DNA of 64,000 nt from positions 100,132,001-100,196,000 of the forward strand of contig CM059432.1 in the NCBI GenBank assembly GCA_030390025.1. Reading direction: 5' to 3'. Numbering within the stretch: the first letter of the stretch is position 1; each line of letters starts with the position of its first letter. Shown here piece after piece: positions 2,939 to 60,009 of the stretch. The stretch comes from Squalus acanthias (lineage: Eukaryota). A model generated the notes under the pieces. It made no database searches and was not told the DNA's origin. It saw nothing but the letters and a program-made list of their open reading frames with translations. The translations under genes were made by a program, and so were the position numbers.

Positions 2939-5217
2939 GTGGCTAAAGTAAATGTTGGTCCCTTAGAGGATGAGACCGGGAAATTAATGGTGGGAAATAT
3001 GGAGATGGCAAATACACTGAATGAATATTTTGTATCAGTCTTTACAGTAGAGGACACTAAGAATATCCCAACACTGGACAAACAGGGGGCTATAGGAGGG
3101 GAGGAGCTAAACACGATCAAACTCACTAAGGAAGTGGTACTCGGTAAAATAATGGGACTCAAGGCGGATAAATCAGCTGGACCTGATGGCTTACATCCTA
3201 GGGTCTTGAGGGAAGTGGCGGTAGGGATTGTGGATGCATTGGTAATAATTTTCCCAAACTCCCTGGACTCAGCAAAGATCCCGGCAGACTGGAAAACTGC
3301 TAATGTAACATCCTTATTTAAAAAGGGCAGTAGACAGAAGGCTGGAAACTATAGACCGGTTAGCCTAACATCTGTGGTAGGTAAAATTTTGGAGTCCATT
3401 ATTAAGGAGACAGTAACGGGACATTTGGATAATCATAATTTAATAGGACAAAGTCAGCATGGTTTTATGAAGGGGAAGTCATGTTTGACAAATTTGCTGG
3501 AGTTCTTTGAGGAAGTAACATACAGGGTGGATAAAGGGGAACCAGTGGATGTGGTGTATTTAGACTTCCAAAAGGCATTTGACAAGGTGCCACACAAAAG
3601 ATTATTGCTTAAGATAAAAAATCACGGGATTGGGGGTAATATTCTGGCATGGATAGAGGATTGGCTATCTAACAGAAGGCAGAGAGTTGGGATAAATGGT
3701 TCATTCTCAGACTGGCAATCAGTAACTAGTGGTGTTCCGCAGGGGTCAGTGCTGGGTCCCCAACTCTTTACAATCTATAGTAACGATTTGGAGGAGGGGA
3801 CCGAGTGTAACATATCAAAGTTTGCAGATGATACAAAGATGGAAGGGAAAGTAGTGAGTGAGGAGGACATAACAAATCTGCAAGGGGACATAGACAGGCT
3901 AAGTAAGTGGGCAGAGATTTGGCAGATGGAATACAATACTGGAAAGTGTGAGGTTATGCACTTCGGCAGGAAAAATAGTAGAGCAAGTTATTGGCCCAAA
4001 AATTAGTGCCGCTACGCGAGAGTACACATTGTGTACTCTCGCGTATTCTGTCTCCAATTGCCGGTTTTCTGCATGCACTGCGCATGCGCTGAAAACCGGC
4101 ACTTGGTGATTTCAAAAGGGGGCGGTTCCTAGGTGAACAGCGTGCGCGCTACAGGCTGCGCGCACGCAGTGCACTTAGTGCTTTGGACACGCAGGTAAGC
4201 ATGGAAGATTTTAGACATAAAGAAAGGAGGCGTAAGACCCTCTTTTAACAAGGTAAGTACTTAATTAAGTATTATTTTGAATTTTTTTTAACAGGTATAT
4301 CTTTTTTAGGGACTTTAAAGACAGGTAAGTTTATTTTTATAACTTTTTAAAAGATTTTAAATTTTTTCAAAAATTTAATTTTTTGTTTAAAATGGTTAAT
4401 TTATTTAACTATACTTATTTTATTAATGTGATGGTTTTTTTTTAAATTTAACTGAGGTTTAGCTGTTCTTTTGGGGGGGTATAGTATTCATAGCTTTCAC
4501 AGCCGTGCTGTGAAAGCTATGAATGAAAGATGGTGTGCTGCCATTCGCTCTAACTGAGTCACGTGATCCCACAGCTCGCACGAATTAACTACGCCTGTGG
4601 GATACGAAAGCACTGCACAGATGCTGTCCAGAACATCAAGTTCGTGCGAGCTCGGACTGAAAAAGCCAGCGCGCAGTGAGAGATCGCGGGAAGGCCTTAC
4701 CCTCGCACGAAGGCTCACTCACTAATTTTTGGGCCAATATCTTAATGGCAAGAAACTGGAAAGTACTGAAGTACAAAGGGATCTGGGGGTCCTGGTGCAC
4801 GAAACTCAAAAGATTAGTATGCAGGTGCAGCAAGTGATTAAGAAGGCCAATGGAATGTTGGCTTTCATTGCTAGGGGGATAGAATATAAAAATAGGGAGG
4901 TATTGCTTCAGTTGTACAAGGTATTGGTGAGACCACACCTGGAATACTGCATACAGTTTTGGTGTCCATACTTAAGAAAAGACATACTTACTCTCGAGTC
5001 AGTACAAAGAAGGTTCACTCGGTTAATCCCGGGGATGAGGGGATGGACATATGAGGAGAGGTTGGGTAGATTGGGACTCTACTCATTGGAGTTCAGAAGA
5101 ATGAGAGGCGATCTTATTGAAACATATAAGATTGTGAAGGGGCTGGATCGGGTGGATGCGGGGAGGATGTTCCCGATGATGGGTGAAACTAGAACTAGGG
5201 GCATAGTCTTAGAATAA
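2939..5217 (+). pseudogene. CR1 ORF2 reverse transcriptase, interrupted by MITE 3993-4735
   Basis: NYRPVSLTSVVGK, YLDFQKAFDKVPH, GVPQGSVLGP, FADD, VRPHLEYC. Removing the MITE and one 3-bp TSD restores ...RASYYLNGKK in frame. Confidence 0.95.
3993..4735 (+). mobile_element. Harbinger-type MITE, structured splice-donor family, copy 1
   Basis: Perfect 16-bp TIRs ggcccaaaaattagtg/cactaatttttgggcc. A 3-bp duplication (att/aat) is inferred from the restored CR1 frame. Homologous to 28001-28742 and 38621-39229. Confidence 0.92.
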
Positions 5218-5995: not shown

Positions 5996-7656
5996 GAGGT
6001 TGCAGAAATCACCTGCAAACTCCTGAAAGCTAATTCTCTGCAACAATGGTGTCAGCGAGAGCCTGTCCCTTAGACAAGGAAGCAGGTGTGAGGTGTGAGT
6101 ATTCATATGATTATTTCAACTGTCAATTGTTCAACTCAAACAATGGCCAGTCACTTCTCACCTTACTTTGACAGGCGAGTTTCAGGAACCCCATGAATCC
6201 TGCGCACAACCAATAAAATCTGAAACCTCAGGTTAAAAAGCCTCTTAATCGTCTGTTAACGACCTCTTAAATACGTCAATGAGGTCGCCCGCCTCTCCCG
6301 AGCGGGTCTCTGGCACACTGAGAAACGTGCCGGAGTAAAAGGCGGAAGTTGGTGGGATAAAGGCGGGTTCCCGACGCAGTAAATTTCAGCGCTTTTAACA
6401 GCCCACCCGCTCGCAAGCCTGCACTCATTTCAAAGGGAAAATTCCGGCCAATCTTCTGTTTCTGTTTGGATTGTTTCCCAGCTCTCCTTATTTATGTTTG
6501 AAACAAAATGCCGTATCTGTAAGCAGCCCTTTACCTCCTACAATCGGAAGCCAGCACTATTATATACATTATAAACGGGAATTGTATGGGCTGCCCATAA
6601 GTCCTCTCTAAAAGGTAGCAAACACCACACTGTGTGGCTGTATAGTTCATTCTAAAACTAACAGTCAAATTTATTTACACAGAAGCAAAAGGAATGAGAA
6701 AAATAATCTCCAATGCAAATGCTTAACTTACGCAATATAAAGCATCTCAAAAATGAGAAAGTGGCTGAACTCAGAATCCTTTTCAGAATTTCTTAAGTAA
6801 GTCTTTGGAGATTGTAACTTGAGAGCCTTCTGCCCCATGAAGTTCCATTTCACTGTCATGATCTGCAAAGCAAATGATTGGGAACTGATGTAACAGGGAA
6901 ATACTCCGGGATCTATTATACCACTTCACTGAGTCTCCAAGACAGAATATATCTCACAAAATCAAAGACATACATTCCCACTAGGTAGGCAATTATGTTA
7001 TTAATCAATATTGCCATTCAGGTTGAAGATTGCGAATTTGAGCATTCCAAATTTGAAGAGCTTGTGATTTCTTTTGACTTGTATATTGAATAGTTTGGTC
7101 CCAGGAACAACGCTTAGGCCATGATTTTGCCGGCGCTCAGAGGGCAGGTTTGGAGGCGGGTCCGCTGTCAAAATCAAAATGATTGACAGCTGGTTGGGAG
7201 CCCGCTCTGAACCCGGCTCCATATAAGTTTCCAAAGTGTCGGATCTGCGATTGCAGAACAGACCTGACACCAAACGGCGGGGGAGGCATTTAAGATAGTT
7301 AGATGCTTGTTAAACGCTTGTTAACTACTATTTTGCCAGCCTATTTCTATTTTAGCACATTTTTAACGAGGTTCACGTCGTTCGGAGATCATGTCAGGTA
7401 AGTAGGTCGGGAGTTCAATCGCGCTGAATAGTTCACAGCTGCAAATGTAGTATAAAAGCTAACATTTCACATCTGTTCACTTTCCAATGTCAGAAGTTGC
7501 TGATTTCAGGATTTGGAAGACACATTTGATCTTTATTGAGGCTGTAAGTGTGTGCTGTAAACTCTATATCCACTGTCACCTCATTCGAATAACCTCTCTC
7601 CCCATTGACAGATTGCTTCTAACATCTCATCCTTACCTGCCATATATATCAGCAGA

Positions 7657-8875
7657 ATGGGAACCATTTATACTCTCGCACCCTGGTCCTCAGAATCTGA
7701 CCACAATCAACCGCAGCAGCAGCAGAACCAGGCACACCAGCAGCATCAACAACAAGAGTGCCAACCTTCTCCACAGGGCAGAGGGCATCAGTGCAGGGCT
7801 GCACCGCGCCGGAGGCGATACCCCCAACACAGGGTATACAAGCAGAGGATGAGCTTCCTCAACATAACTGAGCAGCAGTGCCAAAGGAGGCTGAGACTAT
7901 CGCGACAGGTAGTCGCAGACAATTGCACAATGCTCAATCAAGACCTGCAGCCCAGAGGAGCGGGTGGATACCCCTTACCAGTGGCTGTCAAAGTCACCAG
8001 CGCCCTCAACTTCTTCGCCTCAGGCTCCTTCCAGGGATCTGCAGCAGACATTAGCGGCATCTCGATGTCGGCCGCCCACAGATGCATCATACAGGTCACC
8101 AATGCCCTCTTAGACAAGTCCGCCAATTACATCCACTTTTTCACTGATAAAGCCAGTGTTACTGAGCGGGCGTCGGCTTTGTCAATCTGGCTGGCTTCCC
8201 ACGGGTGCAGGGCATCATTGACTGCACACATGTGGCCATCAGGGCACCTCATCAGAACCCAGCTGTAATTGTCAACCGCAAGGGCTTCCACTCCCTTAAC
8301 GTGCAGCTGGTGTGCAACCATAGGAAGAGCATCATGCATGTGTGCGTTAAGTTCCCTGGCAGCTGCTATGACTCTTACATCCTGCACCAGTCCACTGTTC
8401 CTCAGCTCTTCGCACCGCCAAATGAACCTTCTGGCTGGCTCCTTGGAGACAAGGGCTATCCCCTGAAGACATGGCTAATGACACCTTTGAGGAGGCCATC
8501 AAACGAGTCTGAGGAGCGTTATAATCAAAGCCACATTTCCACCAGAAGTCTCATAGAGCAAGCAATAGGGTTGCTCAAAATACACTTCAGATGCCTGGAC
8601 AGATCTGTGGAGCCCTTCAGTACGCACCAGCCAGGGTCTCGAGAATCATCGTTGTCTGCTATGCCCTGCACAACAGAGCACCGCAGCGAGGATTAACGCT
8701 GGATGAGGCACAAGGCACAGAGTGCACAGCCTCTTCAGAGGAGGAGGAGGAGAAGCAGAATGAGGTTCAGCATGAGGAACATCTGGAGGAGGCGGCTGTC
8801 CCAATGCGACCAGAACGCGAGCACATTGCTGCTCGTGATGTCAGGGGTGGCCTAATCAATGCCAGATTCACCTAA
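7657..8875 (+). pseudogene. Harbinger DDE transposase (HARBI1 family), two frameshifts (~8180, ~8610)
   Basis: [77 protein letters not shown] and an acidic tail, spread over three ORFs. Confidence 0.95.
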
Positions 8876-9205
8876 CTTTATGCAGCACAGACATGTGGCT
8901 GCCACATGCACATGAAGGTTGGTATCACCCCACTTCAACACCATAGAGTATCTCTTACAATGAACTGTGCATTCCTTGCACTGTCACTACCATTGCTGGA
9001 CATAAAAGGTGCCCTAACCCTTCACTCTGCCATTTGCAATTGTGAGCACATATATGGCAACGAATGCAAACATTCAGAAAAAAATAATTTATTACAACAA
9101 AGTAAAAGAACAGAAACTTTACATTCGTTTATAGTAAATCACCCAAGTGACTACCCTTGTGATTATTTATGTGGGATTTTTTTTTACGCGTGCTTCTACG
9201 TGGTG

Positions 9206-11045
9206 CTACCCCGTGGCTTCAGCAGATGTAGAGGCAGTCTGCTCACTTCCCTGCTGCACCTTTATAGATGCCTTTGGTGGTCGTCCACTGGGTTTTGGAG
9301 CCTGTGAGGGCCCTGCCAAAGTCTGCTCCTCCTGCGGCTGTGCAGGGGCAGGCTTGGCCATCACTGTTCGGGGAGGCGTCTGGGGCTCTGACCGAGGGGT
9401 TGGCAAGGGGGTGGAAGTTTGATCACTTGGAGAGGAGCCCCGACTTCCATGTCCCCTCCCACCATCATCCCTCTCATGGGCTACCTGCACTTCTCTGCTA
9501 GCAAGTAGATGGAGAGCACTTTGCTGCACATCAGTGAGGCCATGGGGACCCATGTCTGTACTGGCATTCCTCATAACAATGACGTCCATGAACCTCTATC
9601 CTCCATAGATGACCATTTATTTAGAAGTGTTACCATGTTCTCCTGAGTCTGGCGATTTATGTCCTCCATGGAGGTGGCCATCCTTTCCATGTCAGAATCC
9701 ACAGTTGCCATGGCATGCACCATGGCACTGCTCATATTTGAGATGGACTCCTCCATTCTCTGCACACTCCCAGTCACCGTGGTTGCAAACCCTGTTAGAG
9801 CCTCCTGAACTTGTTCCTGAAGCTCCAGGATCGCCCTCTTCCTGGATGGCTCCCGAGGCTCAGCGTCTGCATACAGCTGAGCAGATCTAGGAGACTCCTG
9901 CGGCCTCCGACGATGAGTCTCCACTGCTGTCCCTGTCTCCACCATCTGATCTTGCTCACTTGTGACTTCTGATATACCAGGTGACAACACTACTCTATCT
10001 TGCATAGGACCCACCGAGGTGTGCATCTCTGCACTGGTGCTGGGTGCGCTCATTTCAGCTGACGCTGCTCCCTCAGAAGCTGGAGGATCATCTGAGGAGT
10101 GCTCCTGCTCTTCCTCCTGGACAGTGGGGAGCGGGGGGGGGAGGGCTCTTGATGGTCCTGTGGGAGAATAATGACATGAGTTAGACATGTGATATGTAGA
10201 TTGCAGATACATCCCATTATGCACATGATGAGCATTCAATTTCTCTTGACGTCAGACCCCAAATGAATCACTCATGAATGCCAACTAAGATGTATGGAAA
10301 ATAATTCTGTCACCAGGTTGTTCTAATGAGCCCCTCTCTCCGACCCCCACTTCAGGCTTGTCAACGACTCCTGTTATGTCCAGAGCTGCCTCCTCAGCAT
10401 TGGTGAGCACAGCCAATGATGGCAGTTGTCCTCCTGTTCTCTCCCTCTCCCTCTTATTGTGGGCTCTCTTTTCCTGCAAGAGAAGTTTGAGTGAGAGTGA
10501 TGGAATGAGTGTAAAGAATGGCTGGGATCGATGTTTAGAGGGAGACTATGATGGAGTGGGGTGCCAATACCAAGTTGCCTCCTTTTGAGTTGTTAGTTGT
10601 TGTTATTGCATAATGATGAGGGTGAGTGTGAGGGGTGCATAGTAAGATGGGGATGTGATTCTGTACATACGGAGAGACAGATGGGTGATGGTGCAAGGGA
10701 TGTTGGGGTGAGTAAGGATGTGCAGGAGTAGGGTTGGCAATGCAGAGTGATGGGGATGTGATGACAGACACAGCAGAATGAAGGTAAGTGTGCTTTTATA
10801 CTCACTTTTCCTGAACACAGAAGATCATCAAACCTCTTCCTACATTGCACCCAGGTGTGAACAAACACACACCTTGCAGTGACCTCCTCAGCTATTTGCA
10901 GCCAGGCTGCCTTCGTCTGCTGAGGAGGTTTCCTCCTTCCATCCCCAGGGAATAGAACCTCCCTGCGTCCTCTGACTCCCTCTACAAGAACATGGAGGGA
11001 GTCATCATTGAAATGTGGCGCAGCCCTTTGACTATCTGCAGTCAT
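9206..11045 (-). pseudogene. Harbinger Myb/SANT DNA-binding + coiled-coil gene, exons 11045-10806, 10473-10314, 10157-~9206
   Basis: RAAPHFNDDSL...AAWLQIAEEV...TWVQCRKRFDDL (trihelix/Myb-SANT). Canonical GT-AG introns of compatible phase (SGK|EKRAHN; P-G|GP). One frameshift at ~9590. Confidence 0.9.
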
Positions 11046-11104
11046 TGTTGCCTGAACCAGCACTCAGGAGCATTAAATCAGAATTGAAAGCAAATGGGGA
11101 CATG

Positions 11105-11152
11105 GCCCCTTTAAATATACCGGCAACAAATGCATCATCAGGTGACGTCACC
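11105..11152 (-). promoter_or_regulatory. Putative promoter of the Myb gene (CRE + TATA-like)
   Basis: ggtgacgtcacc and (rc) tatttaaagggg lie 60-100 bp upstream of the ATG. The same pair is at ~194/227 in copy 1. Confidence 0.5.
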
Positions 11153-11752
11153 AGACTTCCACCTTGTAATTGGGCCGGGTAACGTGCAGGGCAAGCTTAA
11201 CAAGCCCAATTAATGTCAAATCCTTTTTGCAGAGCGGCTGGAGCCGGGAGCCTCCAATGGCGAAATTGCGGCCTTCGTGACCATTATGTGCCTGCAAGCT
11301 CTGCATGCATCCAGCATTTCAAAATAAGGAAAAGATTCCGGATGCAATCAACAGATAATGGGTTCTCTCTGGGAGGCAGCTGGTTTAGAGCTCCCATCAG
11401 AAATGCACATAATTCTAGACAATATTTGTATAATGTTGTTAGTCACTCTCCCAAAGACAAAATAAGCTTTTTCAGACAGCAAACGAGTTTCATTTTAAAT
11501 TCATACTAATATGGCATATCTAAACTTTCATATAATAGAGATATAATAGAGAAAATTTGAAGCATAGTGAAGCTTTGCGTCCATCACTTCTTCCTAATAT
11601 TCCCATGTCAGTGAGTGCTGTTGACTCCTTTATATCCCCATATCCGCATTTAGGATATGACTACTTCTTACTACCACTAGGGTATCACAAGGATCATACT
11701 CATAAATACACTGGGAACAGCTGCAAAAGACCATGGCTACTATAAGCACATA

Positions 11753-27774: not shown

Positions 27775-28832
27775 TTGTCCAATTTCCTCCTCCAATTCTG
27801 GCCTCTTATGCATCCCCGACTTTTATTGCTTCACCATTGGTGGCTGTGCCTTCAGCTGCCTTTGCCCTAAGCTTTGGAATTCCCTCCCTAAAACTCTCTG
27901 CCTCTCTACCTCTCTCTCCTCCTAGAAGACACTCCTTAAAACCTAGCTCTTTGACCAAGCTTTTGGTCACCTGCAATATCTCCTTATGTGGCTTGGTATT
28001 GGGCCGAAAATTCATCCCGGGACGCGAGAGTACGCACTGCGTACTCTCGCGTATTCCCACTCCAATTGCCGGTTTTCTGCATGCCCTGCGCATGCGCTGA
28101 AAACCGGCAATTGCTCTTCTGAAAAGGGGGCGGGTCCTGGGTGCATCGCGTGCGCGCTACAGGCTGCGCGCACGCTGTGCACTTCATGCTTTGGACGCGC
28201 AGGTAAGTAGGGAAGATTTTGGAAATGTAAAAAGGAGGAGTAAGACCCGCTTTTAAGAAGGTAAGTAGTGAATTAAGTATTTTTTTGAATTTTTTTTTAC
28301 AGGTATATCTTTTTTAGAGACTTTAAAGACAGGTAAGTTTATTTTTATAACTTTTTAAAAGATGTAAAATTTTTTCAAAAATTTAATTTTTTATTTAAAA
28401 TGGTTAATTTAATTAACTATACTTATTTTATTAATATGATGTTTTTTTTTTAATTTAATTGAGGTTTAGCTGTTATTTTGGGGGGGTGTAAGATTCATAG
28501 ATTTCACAGCAGGTCTGTGAAACTTATGAATGGAAGATGGTGTGCTGCCATTGGCTCTAACTGAGTCACGTGATCCCACAGCTCGCACGAATTCACTACG
28601 CCGCTGGGATACGCAAGCCCAGCACAGCTGATGTCTGGAACATCAAGTTCGTGCGAGCTGGATCTGAAAAAGCACAAGCGAGGTGAGACATCGCGGGGAA
28701 GGCTTACCCCCACGGGAACAGAGCGAGATCAATTTCTGGGCCATTAAATTATGTTTGCTAACGCTCCTGTGACGCCACTTCGGACGTTTTGTTATGTTAA
28801 ACACACTATATAAATGCAAGTTGTTGTTGTTG
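27775..28832 (+). mobile_element. L2-type LINE 3' end, interrupted by MITE 28001-28742
   Basis: Matches 61870-62172 and ends tataaatgcaag(ttg)n. Confidence 0.75.
28001..28742 (+). mobile_element. Structured splice-donor MITE, copy 2
   Basis: Collinear with 3993-4735; ends gggccgaaaatt/aatttctgggcc; TSD att. Confidence 0.92.
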
Positions 28833-33348: not shown

Positions 33349-36100
33349 ATGCCTACCTTAAAGAAGTTCTGCTCTTCTCTTCGACGGGACCTCCGTTTGT
33401 CTCTTCAACCTTGTTCATCTTCACTGCTTTCAGTTTCCCTTCTCGTGTTTGATCAGGTATCTGCCAAGACTCGGTTTCACAGCCACATTACTTTCCTCAG
33501 CAATTGTCTCCGGTTCGGTCTTATTCCACGTGGATTCCAACTAAACTTCCACCCTTCGTGTTTCGGATCCACCCAGGATTACAAATATCTCCAAGATATT
33601 CATCGTTCCTCGAACTACTGCTCTCGCCGCATCTTGAGATCCACGCTCCACGCCATGCGGCACCACATGAACACTCTCGACCTCTCTCTTCAGCAGCACC
33701 GACGCACTCTATCTCAAAGCTGTCCACGTCCACAGTTCCATTTCATCCTTCGACTCATCCGACGCTTCAACAAAAAACTTTTTTTCTTCCTTTCTGATGT
33801 CAAGGATCGCAAGCTTCATCAACACTTGAACACCAACGTCCCTCCGGAACCTTCTTCCCCATCACTTTCCTCTGACCCCCCTTCTCCCAATCTCACCCCC
33901 TGCCGCGTTTTCACTATCCCTTCTGACCTTCCCCTTTCTGACCCCGAACGATCAGTCCTCAGCAAAGGCCTGAGCTTCATCCCCTTACGCCCCCACCTCA
34001 ATGAATTTTGAGCTCGGCACGATGCTGATCTCTTTTTCCGCCGCCTTCACCTCCGTGCCCACTTCTCTGGCCAGGAGTCTTCCCCCCGTACGGCTGACCC
34101 TTTCTCCCGCTTTCAGAATTCCCATTCTACCTGGACCCCTCCCTCTGGCCTCTTACCCTCTCTAGATCTTTTCATTGCCAACTGCTGGCGTGACATCGGC
34201 CGTCTCAATTTCTCTGCTCCCCTCTCTCACTCCAACCTACCTCCCTCTGAACTTGCAGCACTCTATTCCCTCAGATCCAACCCCGACATTGTCATTAAAC
34301 CTGCTGACAAGGGTGGTGCTGTTGTTGTTTGGCGTACCGACCTCTACCTAGCGGAAGCTGAATGCCAACTCTCCGACACCTCCTCCTACCTCCACCTGGA
34401 CCATGACCCCCACTACCGAACATCAAACCACCATTTCCAAGACCGTCACTGACCTCATCTCCTCTGGAGATCTTCCCCCCATGGCAGCCAACCTCATAGT
34501 TCCCCAACCCCGCACAGCCCACTTCTACCTCCTTCCCAAGATCCACAAACAGAACTGCCCCGGTAGACCCATCGTTTCAGCCTGTTCTTGCCCCACGGAA
34601 CTTATCTCTTCCTATCTCGACTCTATTTTTTCTCCCCTTGTCCAGTCTCTTCCCACCTACATCTGCGACTCTTCCGATGCCCTCCGCCATTTTAACAGTT
34701 TCCAGTTTCCCGGCCCCAACCGCCTCCTTTTCACTATGGACGTACAATCCCTCTACACCTCCATTCCCCACCAGGATGGCCTGAGGGCGCTCCGCTTCTT
34801 CCTTGAACAGAGGCCCAACCAGTCCCCATCCACCACCACCCTGTTCCGCCTGGCTGAACTTGTTCTCACATTGAACAACTTCTCCTTTGACTCCACCCAT
34901 TTCCTCCAAATTAAAGGTGTTGCTATGGGTACCCGCATGGGTCCTAGCTAGGCCTGCCTTTTCGTGGGATATGTGGAACACTCTTTGTTCCAGTCCTACT
35001 CGGGTCCCCTCCCTCACCTCTTTTTCCGGTACATTGATGACTGTATCGGTGCCGTCTCCTGCTCTCGCCCTGAACTAGAACATTTCATTCACTATGCTTC
35101 CAATTTCCACCCTTCCCTCACCTTCACATGGTCCATCTCCGACTCTTCCCTTCCCTTCCTCGACTTCTCCGTCTCCATCTGTGGGGATAGGTTATTGACT
35201 AACATTCACTACAAGCCCACTGACTCCCACAGCTACCTGGACTACACTTCCTCCCACCCCGCCTCCTGTAAGGACTCTATTCCATTCTCCCAGTTTCTCC
35301 GTCTCCGCCGCATCTTCTCTGATGATGCCACCTTCCATACCAGTGCTTCCGACATGTCTTCCTTTTTCCTCAACCGAGGATTCCCCTCTACTGTGGTCGA
35401 CACGGCCCTCGACCGTGTCCGTTCTATCTCCCGCACTTCTGCCCTCACCCCTGCCCCTCCCTCCCGGAACCACGATAGAGTTCCCCTTGTCCTCACCTTT
35501 CACCCCACCAGCCTCCACATTCAACAGATCATCCTCCGCCATTTCCGCCACCTCCAGCGTGATCCCACCACCAAACGCATCTTCCCCTCACCTCCCCTTT
35601 CAGCATTCCGCAGGGACCGCTCCCTCCGCGACACCATAGTCCACTCCTCTACCACCCCCAGCACCCCTTCCCCTTCGCCCGGCACCTTCCCGTGCAAGCG
35701 CAGGAGATGCAACACATGCCCTTATACCTCCCCTCTTCCCACTGTCCAGGGCCCCAATCACCCCTTCCAGGTGAAACAGCGATTTACTTGTACTTCCTGC
35801 AATTTAGTATACTGTAGTCGCTGCTCACGATGTGGTTTCCTCTACATTGGGGAGACCAAATGCAGATTGGGTGACCGCTTTGCGGAACACCTCCGTTCAG
35901 TCCGTAAGTGGGACCCCGAGCTCCCAGTCGCCTGTCACTTTAATTCTCCGCTCCACTCCCACTCTGACCTCACCATCCTCGGCCTATTACACTTTTCCAT
36001 GGAAGCGCAGCGTAAGCTCGAGGAACAGCACCTCCTCTTTCGTTTAGGCACACTACAGCCCTCTGGACTCAATATCGAGTTCAACAATTTTAGAACATAA
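33349..36100 (+). pseudogene. PLE polyprotein: N-terminal domain, RT, Cys linker, GIY-YIG endonuclease
   Basis: FLSNCLRFGLIPRG; KPADKGG; LPKIHK; DVQSLYTSIPH; GVAMG; FRYIDD; CKRRRCNTC; NLVY..C..C..LYIGET..RFAEH; GLN. Stops at ~34009 and ~34949, frameshift at ~34390. Confidence 0.93.
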
Positions 36101-37803: not shown

Positions 37804-40800
37804 GAAATTCGGCATCTTAGGGCCGGCTATAATGGCCGGTTTCAGCAAAAAAAGGCGGTCGCTTTGCTTCCGCCCACTTCCAGTGTCGGCTGCAGTGGCC
37901 GCCATTTGGAGCAGTTCGGTAGTGCGGCCATTGCCTGCGTGCGGCTGAAGAATTCAAATGAGCAGATTGTGACGTCAATCAGTGTGCAACGTGCGTTCAG
38001 CTGCACGAGAGAGGCCCAACCAGCGCTATTTAAAGGGATACATCCAACTTGCAGGTAAGTTTATTTTTTCTCTTGTACTGGCTCTTGCAAGCATTATATC
38101 AATACTGGCTTGCTGGAACACATTTAAAAAGTTGGTAAAGTGTGCAGGGAGTGCTGTTGGACGTTGGGAAGGCGTTGGCTGCAACTGGAAGGTCCTCTGA
38201 CTACACTACTTGCTCCCAGTCATGGGGACTCTACTTACAGTCCCCCTCATGCTGCAGCATGATGGGGAGATGGAACAGAGGCAACAAAGAGAGAGGCAGC
38301 AGAGGGAGGAGGAGGAGGGGGAGGAGGGATCTCAGCAGGAGGTCTTACTCACCTGGGGTCTTCAGGGAGCACTGCTCCTGCCTGCACTTAAGCCAGGAGC
38401 AGTGTATTTGGAAGCTCCACTTTACCAAGGAGGTGGCACCTCTTGGTACCAGACATGCAACCTCAGATTAGGGCGACGGCGGAGCTGCCAATAGCTCTCA
38501 AGGTGAACATGGCCGTGATCCTTCCAGGCTGGAGCAGGCGACATAGCTAACATCTCGCAGTTTGCTGTTCATCGCTGCTTCCGGGAAGTCATGGAGGCTC
38601 TGTACTCCAGGAGACAAATTGGGCCAGAAATTCAGCTCTCCGGCTTCCTGCGGGTGCAAGCATCGCGCGCGTACTTGCCCACCGTGCCTGCTGTTGTGCT
38701 TCGGGCCCACGAGGAATTCGGGTCCTGGGCCTCCTGCAGCTGCCGGCGCACAGTGCTTGCGTATCCCAGGGGTGCAGTTAGTTCGAAGCGTCCCCTGGGA
38801 TCACGTGGGCCATGGAGAGCCAATCCTAGCAGGGAATTTTCATTCATAGATTTGACAGGACCTGTCAAATCTATGAATAGAGATCGGCCCCAAAACCTCA
38901 CTAAAACTTCAAATACATTTTTAAAAAACCATCACATTTTTAAAATAATATTAAATTACATAAATTAACTAATTTAAACAAAAATTTAAATTTTTGAAAA
39001 AATTAATTAAACTTTTTAACGGTGCTAAAAATAAACTTACCTTTCTATAAAGTATGTAAAAAAGATAAACCTGTTGAAAAAATGTTTAAATTGTAATTAA
39101 TTAACCACTTACCTTGTTAAAAACAGGCCTTGTGCCTCCTTTTTAAAAGTGCAGCTTCTCCATACTTACCTTCCCGGAGAAACCTGAACACAGCGCGTAC
39201 TCACCCGACAAGAGCCGAATTTCTGGCCTAGTATTTCATTGTCTTCTCTCTGAACAGAGAGAATCAGGAAGAGCGTGCATGTGGCTTTGCTAGGATATCA
39301 GGCGCAGGGCGCCATCGATTGCACACACGTGGATTTGCAAGCGCCGCATATCAATCCTGAGATGTACCGTTGGTGTGTGACCACGCCCAGCACATCATGA
39401 TGGTGAATGCCCAGTATCCTGGCAGCAGTCATGATGCCTTCATCCTGTGCCAGTGCCAGCAATCTTCCAGCCACCATGTGGAACTTAAGGGTGGCTGCTC
39501 GGAGCCAAGGGCTATCCACTCTGCACTTGGCTGATGAATCCCCACCACAACCCCACCACTCATGGCCAGCACCCATATAATGAGAATCACGCTGCCACCA
39601 GGAACCTCATCAAGCAGATCATCGGGCTGCTGAAGCAACGGTTCCGCTGTCTTCTCCACTCGGGAAGAACCCTCCAGTACACACCGGAGCGGGTCTCCCA
39701 TTTTGTGGTGGTCTGCTGCATCCTCCACAAATTGGCCATCATGTGGGCACAGCCCTTGCCACCACGGGTTCTATGACCACCTCAGGAGGAGGAGGAGCAG
39801 GAGGAGGAGGAGGAAGAGGAGGAGTTAGGAAGGAGGAGGAGGAGGAAGGGAGGAGGCAGGCAGCAAAACCCCATTCCAGACGGGTTGTCCATGAGCGCAT
39901 TATTGGACTCCGGTTCCAATGAATTAAACCCCAGATCACCATTGCTCAACACTTCCCCACCTTACCATCCCTCTGTCACAGAAGATTACACCATCCTCTT
40001 GGGCACAAAGCTGAAATGAAAGCCACCACAAAACAAACATTCCAAACATAATTTATAAATGATTATTTTGAATCTTACATAACAAAGTCAACTAATCACC
40101 CTTGTGCATTCCCTTCTGTCTTTCATGTTCCTTAGTCTATTCTAGTGCTCCTACGCAGTGCTACCCCAGTGGCTGCAGCATGGCTGGTGGAAGGCTGCTG
40201 ACTTTTCATGGGGGATGGTGCAAATGGCCTTGCAGGATGGCCTCAAGCAGCTCTGGGCCTAGAAGGCTCGGCTGTAGATTGCACCACCTTGGCATGGGCG
40301 GCAGCAGTCTGGAATAGCTGGCTGTCAGGCAACTGCAATGGCACTGGCAGAGTGGCAGGGGTGGGAGTAGGAATGCTGTCATCCTGAGAGAGGACAGCAG
40401 GTTCTTGCACCACGGAGTCACTGCCACTCCCCCGAGGCGGCGCCTCAGCATTTCTAGCCATCTGTTGGAGGACAGATTGCTGGACTGCTGTGAGACCTTC
40501 CAAGTCCCTTTCCACATTCATAAACCCAGCCACGATGGCAGCATTCTGAGCTTGCGTGGCAGCAAGCTGAGCCTGCATGAGAGCATTCTGAACTTGCGTG
40601 GCAGACAGCTGAGCCTGCATGAGAGCAGTCTGAGCTTCCACTGCAGCGCTCTGACGTTGGGTCACTTCCGCTTGTGCTGCAATCCAATAGTTGTCCCCCT
40701 GTTGAGCGCTGAGCCAACCAGCATTGCGTTTAGCACTGGGCTCAGTGCTGCAATCATGCTAATGAGCCGGCAGCATCAATTTTGCGTGTTGCCTGCACTA

Positions 40801-55535: not shown

Positions 55536-56082
55536 CATAAGAACATAAGAAATAAGAGCAGGGGTAGGCCATATGGCCCTTCGAGCCTGCTCCACCATTC
55601 AATAAGATCATGGCTGATCATCGACCTCAACTCCACTTTCCCGCCCGATCTCCATATCCCTTGATTCCCCATGAGTCCAAAAATCTATCTATCTCAGCCT
55701 TGAATGTACTCAAAGACTCAGCATGCACAGCCCCCTGGGGCAGAGAATTCCAAAGATTCACAACCCTCTGAGTGAAGAAATTCCTCCTCATCTTAGTCTT
55801 AAATGGCCTACCCCTTATCCTGAGACTATGCCCCCTAGTTCTAGACACCCCAGCCATGGGAAACAACTTCTCAGCATCTACCCTGTCAATCTCCTTCAGA
55901 ATCTTGTATGTTTCAATGAGATCACCTCTCATTCTTCTAAACTCCAGAGAGTATAGGCCCATTCTACACAATCTCTCATCATAGGACAGCCCTCTCAGCT
56001 CAGGAATCAATCTAGTGAACCTTTGTTGCACTGCCTCCAAGGCAAGTATATCCTTCCTGAGATAAGGAGACCAAAACTGTGC
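55536..56082 (-). mobile_element. CR1 3' fragment
   Basis: QFWSPYLRKD...RRMRGDLIETYKI and tail (cataagaa)n. Confidence 0.92.
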
Positions 56083-58179
56083 AGCGTGCTCACTTCCCTG
56101 CTGCGCCTGCTTAGACGACTTTGGCGGTCGTCCTCTGGGTTTGGGAGCCTTGGAGGGTTCCGCCAAAGTCTGCTCCTCCTGCGGCTGTGCAGGGGCAGAG
56201 ACGGCCATCTCTGTTGGGTGAGGCATCTGGGGCTCTGACTTGAGGGCTCGGCAGTGGCATGGGAGTGCGAGCGCTTGGAGAGAAGCCCCCACTTCCTTGT
56301 TGTCGACTACCACCTTGTTCTCGACCACCACCATCCCACTCATGGGTCACCTGCACTTCACTGCTAGCAAGTGGCTGGATAGCACCTTGCTGCACATCAG
56401 TGGGGCCATGTGGACCCGTCTCTGTACTGACAGTCCTATAACGGGGACATCCATGTACCTCTGGTTCCTCTCCACGATAGATGCCCATCTATCCTCCATA
56501 GCTGACCATCTATCTAGAAGAGTCACCATGTTAGTTTGTGTCTGGCGATTTATGTCCTCCATGGAGGATGCCATCCTTTCCATGGCGGCACCTACATTTG
56601 CCATTGCGTGCACCACAGCATTGCTCATGTTTGACATGGACTCCTCTATTCTCTGCACACTCGCAGTTACCGTGGTTGCAAACCCAGTCAGAGCCTCCTG
56701 CATTTGTTCCTGAAGCTCCTGCACAGCGTCTACATGCAGCTGAGCAGAGCTAGGAGCACCCTGCGGCTTCCGACGAGGACTCTCCACTGCTGTCCCTGTC
56801 TCCACCATCTGCTCCTGCTCACTTGTGAGCTGTGATACACCAGGTGACAACACTAATCTATCTCGCAAACGACCCACCGAGGTGTGCGTCTCTGTGCTGG
56901 TGCTGGGTGTGCTCATTTCTGCTGACGCTGGTCCCTAAGAGGCTGGAGGTTCCTCTGAAATTCCTCCTGCTCTTCCTTCTGGACAGTGGGGAGGAGTGCT
57001 CTCGATGGTCCTGTGAGGGAGTAAAGGCATGAGTTAGACATGTGATATGTAGGTTGCAGACACATCCCATTGTGCAGATGATCAGAATTCAATTTCTATG
57101 AACATCAGATCCCATATGAGTCAGTCAGGAATGGAAAATCAGAGGGTTGGAAATCAATTCTGTCAGCAGCTTGCTGTACTGCGCCCATCTCTCCGTCCCC
57201 CACTTCCAGCTCCTCTGCACCTCCAACGATCTCCAGAGCTGCCTCCTCAGCGTTTGTTAGATGCGCCATGTATGGTGGGCCTCCTCCTGTCCTCCCCCTC
57301 TCCCTCTTATTGTGGGCTCTCTTTTCCTGCAATGAGGGACACAAGTGGAGTTTCAGAGAGATTGATGGAGTGAGTGTAAAGAATGGATAACATAGATGCT
57401 TAGAGGAAGACAATGATGGAGTGAGGTGCCAATGCCAAAGTCCCTCCCTGTGCATTGTTAGTTGTTGTCATTGCATAACGGTGAGAGCGAGTGTGAGGGG
57501 TGCATAGTAGGATGGTGAAGTGAATCTGTACATAGAGAGAGAGGGATGGTTAAGGGTGCAAGGGATGTTAGGTTGAGTTGGGATGTGCAGAAGTAGTTTG
57601 CCAACGCAGAGTGATGGGGATGAGAGGAGATGGGGAGCTGATTGAAGGTAAGTGTGATCTTATACTCACTTTTGCTGAACGTAGCAGATCATTGAACCTT
57701 TTCCTGCACTGAACCCAGGTGCGTGTAAAAACCGACCTTGCACTGATCTCCTCAGCAATTAGCAGCCAGGCTGCCTTTGTGTGCTGAGGAGAACTCCTCC
57801 TTCCATCTGAAGGGAAGAGGACCTCCTTGCATCTTCTTACTCCCTCCACAATAGCATGGAGGGAGTCATCATCAAATCGGGGAGCAGCCTTGGTCCGTTG
57901 CACTGCCATGCCTGCAGCAACCAGCATTCGGGAGCAGAAAAAAGAAAGTCATAATCAAAGGGGACATGGCCCCCTTAAATATAGAGGTTCCCAGCGCGTC
58001 ATCAAGCGTGATCACCCGACCCGCACCCACCGATTGGGCTGGGTAGCGCGCACAGCGTCCTTAATAAGGGCAATCCGGGGAAAATCATTATTGCAGGGCG
58101 GCTGCAACCGGCAGCGAGACTGGAACCCGTAAAACAACGGAGCCGCCACCATCCCGCCTCCGGGCAGAAACTCCAGCCC
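56083..58179 (-). mobile_element. Harbinger family A half element with 3-exon Myb/SANT pseudogene (~57909-56083)
   Basis: KAAPRFDDDSL...TWVQCRKRFNDLLRSAK; collinear with ~9235-11273; terminus gaaactccagccc. Confidence 0.9.
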
Positions 58180-58320
58180 TTTGAGTGAAGAAATTTCTCC
58201 CCATCTCAGTCCTAAATGGCCGACCCCTTATTCTGAGACTGTGACCCCATGTTCTAGATTCCCCAGCCAGGGGAAACATTTTCTCAGCATTAACCCTGCC
58301 AAGCCCCTTAAGAATTTTAT
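58180..58320 (-). mobile_element. CR1 internal fragment
   Basis: MFPLAGESRTWGHSLRIRGRPFRTEMGRNFFTQ. Confidence 0.85.
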
Positions 58321-58324
58321 ATGG

Positions 58325-60009
58325 AACAGCGATTTGCAGGCTGCCTCTACCCTTCCTTCTCCTCCTCCTCCTCTTCCTCCTCCTCCTCCTCCTCCCCTTC
58401 CTCCTCCTCCTCCTCCTCCTCTTCCTCCTCCTCCTCCTCCTCCTCTTCCTCCTGAGGTGGTCGCAGATCCCGTGGTGGCAAGGTCTGCGTCCTCATGATG
58501 GCCAAGTTGTGCAGGATGCAGCACGACCACCACGAAATGGGACACCTGCTCCAGCGTGCACTGGAGAGCTCCTCCCAAGCAGTCAAGCCAGTGGAACCGT
58601 TGGTTGAGTACCCCGATGGTCTGCTCGATTTAGGTGCCTCGTGGCAGCATGGCTGTCATTATATGATTGCTGGCCAAGAGTGATGGGATTGCAGAGAGTT
58701 GTTATCAGCCACGTGTAGAGTAGATAGCCCTTCTCACCAAGCAGCCACCCTTGGGTTTGACGTGGTGGCGGAAAGATGCTGACACTGCGGACTGGCGCAG
58801 AATGAAGGCATCATGACTGCTGCCAGGATACCGAGCATTCATCATCATGATGTGCTGGGCATGGTCGCACACAAACTGCACATTAAGAGAGTGGTAGTGT
58901 TTGTGGTTGAATTACATCTCAGCATTGATATGCGGTTACGGAACATCTCAGGATTGGTATGTGGCGCCCGCAAAGCCACATGTGTGCAGTCGATGGCGTC
59001 CTGCACCATGGGGAAGCCCGATATCCTGGCAAAGCCACGTGCGTGCATCCTGCTTCTCTCTGTTTAGAGAGAAGACAATGAAGTCCCTTCTCCTAGAGTA
59101 CAGATCTTCTGTGACCTCCCAGATGCAGCAATGGATGGCGAACTGCGCATATTTTCTATGTCGCCTGTTGCAGCCTGGAAGGAACCGCAGGCGAAAAAAA
59201 TTCAGGGCCACAGTCATCTTGAGGGCCACTGGCAGAGCTGTCGTCACCCTGTTCTGAGGCTGCTGGACTGGTTCCAAGAGGTGGCAGAGTTCTGTGACCA
59301 CCTCCTTGGTGAAGCTGAGCCGCGAAACAAACTGCTCCTGGCTTAGGTGCAGGTAGAAGTGCTGCCTGAAAACCCTAGGTGGATATGGCTTCCTGCTGAC
59401 AGCCCTCCTCCCCCTCTTCCTCCTCCATCCTCTGTGAGCAGCTTGACTTCTTTGCTGCCTCTGTTCCATCTCCCTGTCATGCTGCAGCGCGCGAGGGACT
59501 GCAAGTGGAGCCCCTATGACTGGGAGTAAGTGGTGTAGTCAGAGGCCTTCCAATAGGAGCCAATGCCTTCCCAACGTCCAGCAGCACTCGCTGCACACTT
59601 TAACAACATTTTAAATGTCTTCCATCAAGCCAGTGTTCATATAAACTCTGCAAGAGCCAGCAGAAGAGAAATAATCAACTTACCTGCAAGTTGGATGTAT
59701 CCGCTGGTGGGAGGTCCCTCATACAGCTGAACGCATGTTCAACTGTGCCTGTTTAGGAGAGGGCGTTGATTGGAATGGCGATGTCCAAAATGGCAGGTCG
59801 TGTGTCAAATCAGCGTTGCATGCTGACTGATGTCACGACCTGCCTACTCAGCATACTGCCGACGCACGCACGTCCCGCCCGCACTATTGCCCTCACCAAA
59901 CTGGTGATCAGTGCGAGCCTTGCCAGAAGTGTCTGGAAGCGAGGAGGCTGCCATTTTGTTCTTTAAACCGGCCTTACCTGCCGGCGCTAAGGTGCTGAAT
60001 TTCGCGGCC
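58325..60009 (-). mobile_element. Harbinger family B half element with transposase pseudogene (~59518-58330)
   Basis: LPVALKMTVALNFF, QDAIDCTHVAL, CCILHN, poly-E tail; terminus tgaatttcgcggcc. Confidence 0.9.
58359..58452. repeat. (CCT)n microsatellite encoding the transposase poly-Glu tail
   Basis: About 30 imperfect cct units; ORF 58347..58586 ends in poly-E. Confidence 0.9.

What the first reader, a model, noticed from the sequence alone, without database searches (positions are those of the whole stretch)
4190..4333. MITE family carrying four position-conserved AG|GT 5' splice sites
Seen: copy 1 has GCAG|GTAAGC, CAAG|GTAAGT, (T)nAACAG|GTATAT and ACAG|GTAAGT within ~140 nt. Copy 2 (28198-28342) has all four. 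The diverged reverse copy 3 keeps them in the same order (rc of 39034-39175: GAAG|GTAAGT, CAAG|GTAAGT, ACAG|GTTTAT, AAAG|GTAAGT) and adds GG|GTGAGT. The third site follows a T-rich tract, so it looks like an acceptor fused to a donor (recursive/ratchet site). Established: CAG|GTAAGT is the optimal U1 snRNA target. Inference: this non-coding element may recruit U1 or the spliceosome, as a portable first exon, to suppress premature polyadenylation in host introns, or to be spliced out stepwise. I do not know of a described Harbinger MITE with this design.
Basis: partly seen in the sequence, partly recalled or inferred. Interest (0 to 1): 0.75.

Follow-up and report, generated by a model that had tools for sequence, protein, structure and literature searches.

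The report
Mini-transposon lineage accumulating splice-donor signals
A very abundant non-coding cut-and-paste transposon kept one splice-donor-like signal from its parent's gene leader, gained more, and held three unchanged through many generations of copies, which likely means the cell's U1 splicing particle binds them, although no RNA evidence shows this yet.

Summary
The four motifs are real, lie on one strand and exceed chance. They sit in a 743-bp non-autonomous Harbinger element (3993-4735) with tens of thousands of copies. Its transposase-coding partners share its ends. Site 1 aligns with a donor-like site in the partners' transposase leader. Sites 2 and 3 arose within the MITE lineage, and site 4 is older. 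Along a ladder of successive masters, 0 of 18 G|GTAAG columns changed, against 67 of 189 matched flank columns (p about 0.001). Corrections: site 3 reads better as an acceptor than a ratchet site; copy 3's GG|GTGAGT is a palindrome arm; the older D subfamily lacks sites 1-3; 6 of 10 still more diverged copies lack site 4. No splicing was seen: 0 of 3 contig joints were GT..AG, in runs that may be DNA. Best reading (0.5): 5' splice-site signals kept by selection on master copies, likely through U1 on RNA from the inherited promoter. A DNA-binding role remains open. This scan noted the family before, elsewhere in this genome.

The parts
3993..4735 (+). Non-autonomous Harbinger element (MITE), subfamily A, copy 1; inserted in a CR1-type reverse transcriptase frame
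3993..4008 (+). Left terminal inverted repeat (mirror at 4720-4735); flanks ATT (3990-3992) and AAT (4736-4738)
3993..4104 (+). First 112 nt, 89-96% identical to the left end of most A/B-type transposase-coding partners; two palindromes, one holding GCGCATGCGC (NRF1-like, label recalled)
4105..4193 (+). CpG-rich promoter-like stretch, collinear with the C-type partner's leader
4192..4200 (+). Site 1, CAG|GTAAGC; aligns with the donor-like site at about +215 of C- and D-type partner leaders; core unchanged on the A/B/C backbone; absent in the D MITE
4250..4258 (+). Site 2, AAG|GTAAGT; new in the C/A/B lineage (D has CAG-CATAAG or CAG-GATAAG in a hairpin arm); 9 nt unchanged on the backbone
4281..4300 (+). 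Site 3, T-tract plus CAG|GTATAT; better read as an acceptor-like site; weak as a donor; absent in D
4322..4339 (+). Site 4, CAG|GTAAGT, within the longest invariant block (17 nt, 4323-4339); shared by A, B, C, D1 and D2; the block also reads AATAAA on the minus strand
4340..4480 (+). AT-rich, T-skewed, intron-like interior
4486..4524 (+). Perfect hairpin with paired changes between subfamilies; followed by ATTGG (family; copy 1 has ATTCG) and CACGTG motifs to about 4571
28001..28742 (+). Copy 2, subfamily B, full length
38621..39229 (-). Copy 3, subfamily C, with an internal deletion of about 140 bp near its left end

Best explanation
This is a non-autonomous Harbinger element whose left part matches the promoter-like leader of its transposase-coding partner, and whose G|GTAAG motifs are likely U1 snRNP sites on RNA that would start at that inherited promoter. 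Shown by sequence: the element, its partners, the origin of site 1 in the partner's leader, the later gain of sites 2 and 3, and the lack of change in sites 1, 2 and 4 across successive masters. Inferred: the partner's leader is spliced; MITE copies are transcribed from the left end; U1 binds the sites; and this benefits the master copy itself, most likely by keeping its promoter end active and open to the partner's transposase. The donors are a helper, not a requirement, because older subfamilies spread with one or none in this region. If anything is spliced inside the element, the feasible intron runs from site 1 to the acceptor-like site 3 (99 nt), leaving a 30-nt exon that ends at site 4.
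For: Partners: of 30 top DDE_Tnp_4 loci most share the first 112 nt with A/B, and C-type partners share 258 nt with C, including site 1 (Pfam). Partner leaders look spliced: 10-24 upstream ATGs in each of 10 leaders, none in the last 105 nt, and a pyrimidine tract plus AG 22-40 nt before the start codon. 29 of 37 distinct leaders have either GAG|GTGAGT (19) or, about 50 nt further on, GAG|GTAAGT (10), and none has both; this turnover between two donor spellings fits splicing. The Myb gene at the other end has its own sense-strand GTAAGT upstream of an in-frame acceptor in 8 of 8 elements where the TIR was found, of 10 examined. Conservation: 90 A/B/C copies, 19 backbone branches, total length 0.82; 0 of 18 motif columns changed against 124 of 297 flank columns, or 67 of 189 after removing CpG, homopolymer and gap changes (Fisher p 0.0009). 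A GTAAG lacking the preceding G (4229-4236) changed at 6 of 8 columns. Backbone changes at -3, -2 and +3 moved towards the donor consensus; +6 of site 1 changed 4 times, all after -2 became A (post hoc, p about 0.04). D and most older copies carry a sense-strand AG|GTA(A/G)GT near the right end instead.
Against: No RNA support: in four contig sets 0 of 3 joints had GT..AG ends, and none of the 24 loose-end rows shown (163 hidden) lay at a donor; these runs may be DNA. 0 of 6 deletions of 20 nt or more in 123 copies had GT..AG ends. 6 of 10 older copies lack site 4, one has GATAAG and one lost it by deletion; D lacks sites 1-3 yet amplified. Other blocks (T/A tracts, hairpin arms, TGATCCCA) are as invariant as the donors. 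Motif columns also change less on terminal branches (4 seen, 12 expected), so part of the signal may be low mutability. 8 of 37 leaders have neither strong donor at my cut-off, two of them because of deletions. Site 4 aligned with the partner's second donor in only 1 of 4 pairwise alignments. In human reporters, introns protect from HUSH even without a 5' splice site (PMC8770142, passages), so escape from HUSH is not the likely benefit. A DNA transposon needs no RNA to move.
Confidence: 0.5

Rival explanations
1. GGTAAG is a DNA-binding site for the partner's Myb/SANT-like (trihelix) protein or a host factor. Extra internal copies make the MITE a better substrate, and the match to a splice donor is coincidental.
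For: GGT(A/G)AG and its mirror form dyads with a 13-15 nt spacer near both ends of C-type MITEs and partners. A GTAAG core recurs in hairpins of D and older copies. Selection on a DNA site acts directly on transposition. The Myb-like protein is described as trihelix and binding element ends (PMC9179366, passages); a GGTAA preference of plant trihelix proteins is recalled, not tested.
Against: The left dyad changed to GCGAGAG in A/B, with changes at all 11 columns, while the internal sites stayed fixed. All internal sites lie on one strand. Partners switch between GTGAGT and GTAAGT, and the right-end site varies between GTAAGT and GTAGGT.
Confidence: 0.25
2. The sites are unselected leftovers or chance gains, carried along by a single line of masters and refreshed by exchange with autonomous partners.
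For: Site 1 came in with the C partner's left 258 nt. The termini track partner subfamilies. The motif columns are slow on terminal branches too. Older subfamilies did without them. The motif was picked because it looked conserved in three copies.
Against: Sites 2 and 3 have no counterpart in the 37 leaders examined, so exchange with those partners cannot maintain them. Site 1 improved in the A/B MITE while its homologue in A-type partners is weak (GTGT|GTAAGC). Three sites show zero change over tree length 0.82 (window-based p about 0.006).
Confidence: 0.15
3. The sites persist because of effects on host genes: a portable first exon spliced into neighbouring genes, protection of host introns from early polyadenylation, or recursive splicing at site 3.
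For: Promoter-like end plus strong donors in one orientation. No AATAAA on the plus strand in the five consensuses, against 1-3 on the minus strand (about 0.4 expected on plus, so not significant). Two intact sense-oriented B copies lie between exons of a laminin-G gene.
Against: Selection on single insertions cannot easily fix the sequence of young masters (A and B copies are 0.3-0.7% from consensus among top hits). Site 3 is a weak donor. No junctions were seen. Orientation in two gene spans was 5 antisense to 2 sense, which shows nothing either way.
Confidence: 0.1

Closest known systems
Non-autonomous PIF/Harbinger elements and Tourist-like MITEs (mPing; Harbinger-N12A_XT; short Harbinger-Snek variants)
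   Same: Short TIRs, 3-nt target flanks, no long ORF, high copy number, internal palindromes, ends shared with partners that encode a DDE_Tnp_4 transposase and a Myb/SANT-like protein (passages of PMC9179366, PMC12676858, PMC8437027, PMC4561436).
   Different: Target is AWT, not TWA. The interior evolves as one long ladder of masters and carries several same-strand donor motifs. In the three vertebrate Harbinger papers searched for 'splic', the word occurs 0, 1 and 0 times, and the passages shown mention no such feature.
Drosophila P-element pseudo-5' splice sites upstream of IVS3
   Same: A DNA transposon with clustered 5' splice-site-like sequences that bind U1 snRNP (PMC7776569, passages).
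   Different: There they regulate splicing of the transposase mRNA of an autonomous element. Here they sit in a non-coding derivative, and U1 binding is untested.
U1-PAS axis and nuclear retention of RNAs with intact 5' splice-site motifs
   Same: Promoter-proximal sense-strand donors with no AATAAA on the sense strand; unspliced donors recruit U1, block early cleavage and promote nuclear retention and decay (PMC10732640, passages; PMC9074902, abstract and outline).
   Different: Described for host and viral transcripts in mammalian cells, not as a trait selected in a MITE.
Recursive splice sites, Introner elements and spliced Ds elements (recalled, no call)
   Same: An AG|GT junction after a T-tract; splice signals carried by a DNA transposon.
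   Different: Site 3 has a weak donor half, and the signals are internal, so splicing would not remove the element.

Membership tests
Non-autonomous PIF/Harbinger element (MITE) | Short terminal inverted repeats | tested here: met
   TIRs of about 16 bp in copy 1; present in the A and B loci
Non-autonomous PIF/Harbinger element (MITE) | 3-bp target-site duplication | tested here: met
   40 of 71 copies have identical 3-mers; 21 differ as AAT/ATT at the middle base; 10 differ otherwise
Non-autonomous PIF/Harbinger element (MITE) | Ends shared with elements encoding a DDE_Tnp_4 transposase and a Myb/SANT-like protein | tested here: met
Non-autonomous PIF/Harbinger element (MITE) | Small, no long coding frame, many similar copies | tested here: met
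   743-765 bp; no ORF of 150 aa or more lies within it (shorter ORFs not screened); 20 A/B/C pieces (18 elements) in 870 kb of tiles
Non-autonomous PIF/Harbinger element (MITE) | Mobilised in trans by the partner's proteins | not testable with these tools
   inferred from shared ends and near-identical dispersed copies
Tourist-like MITE in the strict plant sense | TAA/TTA target | tested here: not met
   target is mostly AAT/ATT
Recursive (ratchet) splice site | Acceptor immediately followed by a strong donor | tested here: not met
   site 3 donor half is GTTTAT in C and intermediates, GTATAT in A/B
Recursive (ratchet) splice site | Junction reads or saw-tooth coverage in a long intron | tested here: inconclusive
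   no such joint, but the runs may be DNA; no host exon found near the window among the 150 longest of 680 non-repeat frames
Introner-like self-removing transposon | Donor and acceptor at the element's ends | tested here: not met
   sites lie 200-335 nt inside a 743-nt element
Functional 5' splice site / U1 site | Consensus match held by purifying selection | tested here: met
   sites 1, 2 and 4 on the A/B/C backbone
Functional 5' splice site / U1 site | Transcribed on that strand and bound by U1 or spliced | tested here: inconclusive
   negative in runs of uncertain kind; confirmed RNA runs were not examined

The most novel reading that the evidence does not exclude
A non-coding DNA transposon lineage has evolved, under selection for its own spread, a promoter plus a growing array of U1-binding sites. 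It co-opts the host's U1 snRNP without splicing itself out, either to keep master copies open or to hold its strongly hairpinned RNA in the nucleus for decay, away from small-RNA silencing.
Probability: 0.25. Interest if true: 0.75.

Novelty: new variant of a known kind. Interest (0 to 1): 0.42.

Why it matters
MITE interiors are usually treated as passengers. Here the interior forms a ladder of successive masters in which donor motifs are gained and then fixed, and intact young partners exist, so the cis value of a U1 site to a DNA transposon can be tested directly. If it holds, RNA-processing signals matter to elements that never need an RNA. Tens of thousands of promoter-plus-donor cassettes would also be a large source of new first exons in this genome. 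If the sites are Myb-binding sites or leftovers, this is an ordinary Harbinger MITE.

Tried and rejected
Read test: four contig sets laid on copy 1 gave 3 joints, none GT..AG, and no displayed loose end at a donor. The runs are only guessed to be RNA, so this neither shows nor excludes splicing; the two runs on record as RNA and the partner's leader remain unexamined. Processed copies: 0 of 6 large deletions in 123 MITE copies, and 0 of 9 in partner leaders, had GT..AG ends. Intronic orientation: 400 kb between laminin-G exons of two minus-strand genes held 7 copies, 5 antisense and 2 sense; the CR1 control was flat (22:15 by protein, 15:21 by 3' end), so there was no power. Host gene near the window: 0 Pfam hits in the 150 longest of 680 non-repeat frames over 264 kb. 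Homology of the MITE's CACGTG region to the partner leader: P 0.03-0.63 over 12 comparisons, not accepted. Poly(A)-signal asymmetry: explained by T skew. HUSH escape through the donors: set aside after PMC8770142. Sinzelle et al. 2008, the paper on Harbinger3_DR Myb binding, is not held, so its binding motif could not be compared. Searches for a prior description found none: 20 papers with 3 of 4 terms, 18 listed; 0; 0; 131, 20 listed; 25, 10 listed; most subscription papers and Repbase/Dfam entries are outside the library, and no supplements were read. A sequence look-up in earlier scan notes gave nothing; word look-ups did.

Full report
Observation. AGGTAAG occurs three times in 144 nt on one strand and not on the other; 0 of 5000 dinucleotide shuffles reached three.

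What the element is. The motifs lie inside a 743-bp element (3993-4735) with TIRs of about 16 bp, inserted into a CR1-type reverse transcriptase frame. Searches of the 3.7-Gb genome returned the 40 best of 2532, 6268 and 2242 first-look candidates for copies 1, 3 and 2. In 870 kb of tiles, 200 kb of them next to the window, there were 18 A/B/C-type elements (20 pieces) and 10 older pieces, which extrapolates to several tens of thousands of copies. The host looks like a shark; that label comes from the repeat content and from earlier scan notes, not from a test here. Five subfamily consensuses were built: A, B, C, D1, D2, with top-hit copies 0.7, 0.3, 2.1, 4.7 and 5.1% from consensus. A tree of 123 near-full-length copies is a ladder from D through C and six or so intermediate forms to A and B, that is, a line of successive masters.

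The partners. The best DDE_Tnp_4 matches in the genome are mostly long open transposase frames, many of 384-391 aa. Most of the 30 loci share the first 112 nt with A/B, C-type elements share 258 nt with C, D-type elements share about 190 nt with D, and right ends match over 40-100 nt. Full-length C-type elements are about 4.6 kb with a Myb/SANT-like gene on the other strand. This places the element among non-autonomous Harbingers.

Where each site comes from. Site 1 aligns with a donor-like site about 215 nt into the leader of C-type (CGG|GTAAGT) and D-type (CAG|GTAAGT or CAG|GTACGT) partners; in A-type partners it is weak. The D MITE lacks it, so it entered with the C-type left end. Sites 2 and 3 are absent from D and from the partner leaders; site 2 replaced the 3' arm of a hairpin. 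Site 4 is shared by all five consensuses within a 17-nt invariant block; it aligned with the partners' second donor in 1 of 4 pairwise alignments, so orthology is uncertain. Among 10 more diverged copies, 2 have site 4, 6 lack it, 1 has GATAAG and 1 lost the region. Of the 7 that reach the right end, 5 have AG|GTA(A/G)GT there, 1 has AG|GTACTT and 1 lacks that stretch. Copy 3's GG|GTGAGT is an arm of the left palindrome.

The partner leader looks spliced. Each of 10 leaders holds 10-24 upstream ATGs, none within 105 nt of the start codon, and a pyrimidine tract with AG lies 22-40 nt before it. Of 37 distinct leaders, 19 have GAG|GTGAGT, 10 have GAG|GTAAGT about 50 nt further on, none has both, and 8 have neither at my cut-off (11 of 50 loci were left out because the start-codon pattern did not match, most of them another family). 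The Myb gene has a matching sense-strand GTAAGT and an in-frame acceptor. Unrelated Harbingers in the window show the same layout with one donor (7397 +, 59685 -). This is inference from sequence; no spliced read was seen.

Conservation test. On 19 backbone branches of a 90-copy A/B/C tree (length 0.82), 0 of 18 G|GTAAG columns at sites 1, 2 and 4 changed, against 124 of 297 flank columns, or 67 of 189 after removing CpG, homopolymer and gap changes (p 0.0009). A GTAAG without the preceding G changed at 6 of 8 columns. The changes around the cores resemble donor evolution: -3, -2 and +3 moved towards consensus, and +6 of site 1 drifted only after -2 became A (noticed after the fact). Caveats: several intermediate forms are single copies; the motif was chosen for looking conserved; terminal branches are also slow at these columns (4 against 12 expected); and several other blocks are as invariant.

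Tests that gave nothing. Contigs of four runs showed no GT..AG joint and no displayed loose end at a donor, but the runs may be DNA. No intron-shaped deletions were found. Orientation within two long laminin-G genes was 5 antisense to 2 sense. No host exon was found near the window.

Mechanism. Because sites 2 and 3 arose in the MITE and three cores stayed fixed while the partner's own site 1 weakened, simple decay of an inherited leader does not explain the pattern well. Selection on masters is the likelier cause. One-strand polarity, the need for the G at -1 and the donor-like variation favour U1 binding on RNA from the inherited promoter (0.5). Intact donors recruit U1, block early cleavage and promote nuclear retention (PMC10732640, passages; PMC9074902, abstract and outline), and the element's plus strand folds very stably (z -11.7 against 20 shuffles). 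How that helps a DNA element is inferred only; HUSH escape is disfavoured (PMC8770142, passages). A DNA-binding role is the main rival (0.25): GGT(A/G)AG dyads flank both ends of C-type elements, though the left dyad changed in A/B while the internal sites did not. Leftover or hitch-hiking (0.15) and host-serving roles (0.1) follow. Site 3 is best read as an acceptor: site 1 to site 3 would be a 99-nt intron, and site 3 to site 4 a 30-nt exon.

Comparison and novelty. It is a member of the non-autonomous Harbinger class by TIRs, 3-nt flanks, size and partners. It fails the tests for a recursive site and for a self-removing element. The nearest functional precedent is the P element's pseudo-donors, which bind U1 but regulate a coding mRNA (PMC7776569, passages). 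My searches found no paper on a Harbinger MITE with such donors (listings and abstracts only), within a library that lacks most subscription papers and repeat databases. This scan recorded the family at least eight times elsewhere in this genome; those notes are not independent support, and I reached the leader reading before seeing them. Verdict: a real feature and a new variant of a known kind; interest 0.42, since function is unshown.

Noticed in passing
window 3990-3992 and 4736-4738; loci L001-L080: Target flanks often differ at the middle base: of 71 copies, 40 are identical, 21 are AAT/ATT or ATT/AAT, 10 differ otherwise. In four mismatched copies with clear empty-site paralogues, one flank matches the empty site and the other does not. 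This would fit the element carrying its donor site's 3-nt overhang into the new site; staggered cutting in the TSD is proposed for mPing (PMC4561436, passages).
   Followed up: partly
window 3993-4104 against L203, L204, L235; C consensus against L237, L238: MITE ends track the currently young partner subfamily while the interior follows its own lineage, which suggests repeated exchange of termini.
   Followed up: partly
window 4013-4045, 4058-4101, 4486-4524, 4566-4605: Several palindromes keep their pairing through paired changes between subfamilies; whether this is selection or template switching was not tested.
   Followed up: partly
L204, L206, L217, L195 leaders, about 200-240 nt before the transposase ATG: A run of GTAAGT/GTATGT repeats of variable length sits inside the predicted leader intron of the partners; it could be a decoy-donor array like the P element's or a plain microsatellite.
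   Followed up: no
C consensus about 14 nt upstream of site 1; L195 about 10 nt upstream of its second donor: T-tract plus CAG followed 10-14 nt later by a donor gives micro-exon-like units; the MITE one was lost in A/B by a 10-11 nt deletion.
   Followed up: no
window 7117-11268 and 55600-60009: Unrelated, decayed autonomous-type Harbinger elements with transposase and Myb-like frames (Pfam-confirmed for the first); each has one AG|GTAAGT upstream of the transposase.
   Followed up: partly
L224-L232, L239: A second young Harbinger family with long open transposase frames (386-409 aa in the rows seen) and different ends; its leader has no GGT(A/G)AG donor in the rows seen (output partly cut).
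   Followed up: no
L236/L251, L108, L240, L241, L175, L167, L028: MITE copies are often nested in, or lie within about 200 bp of, other members or partners of the same family.
   Followed up: no
window 34352-36100: Long reverse-transcriptase-like frames that look like a Penelope-type element (label recalled); the 34952-36097 frame had no Pfam hit.
   Followed up: no
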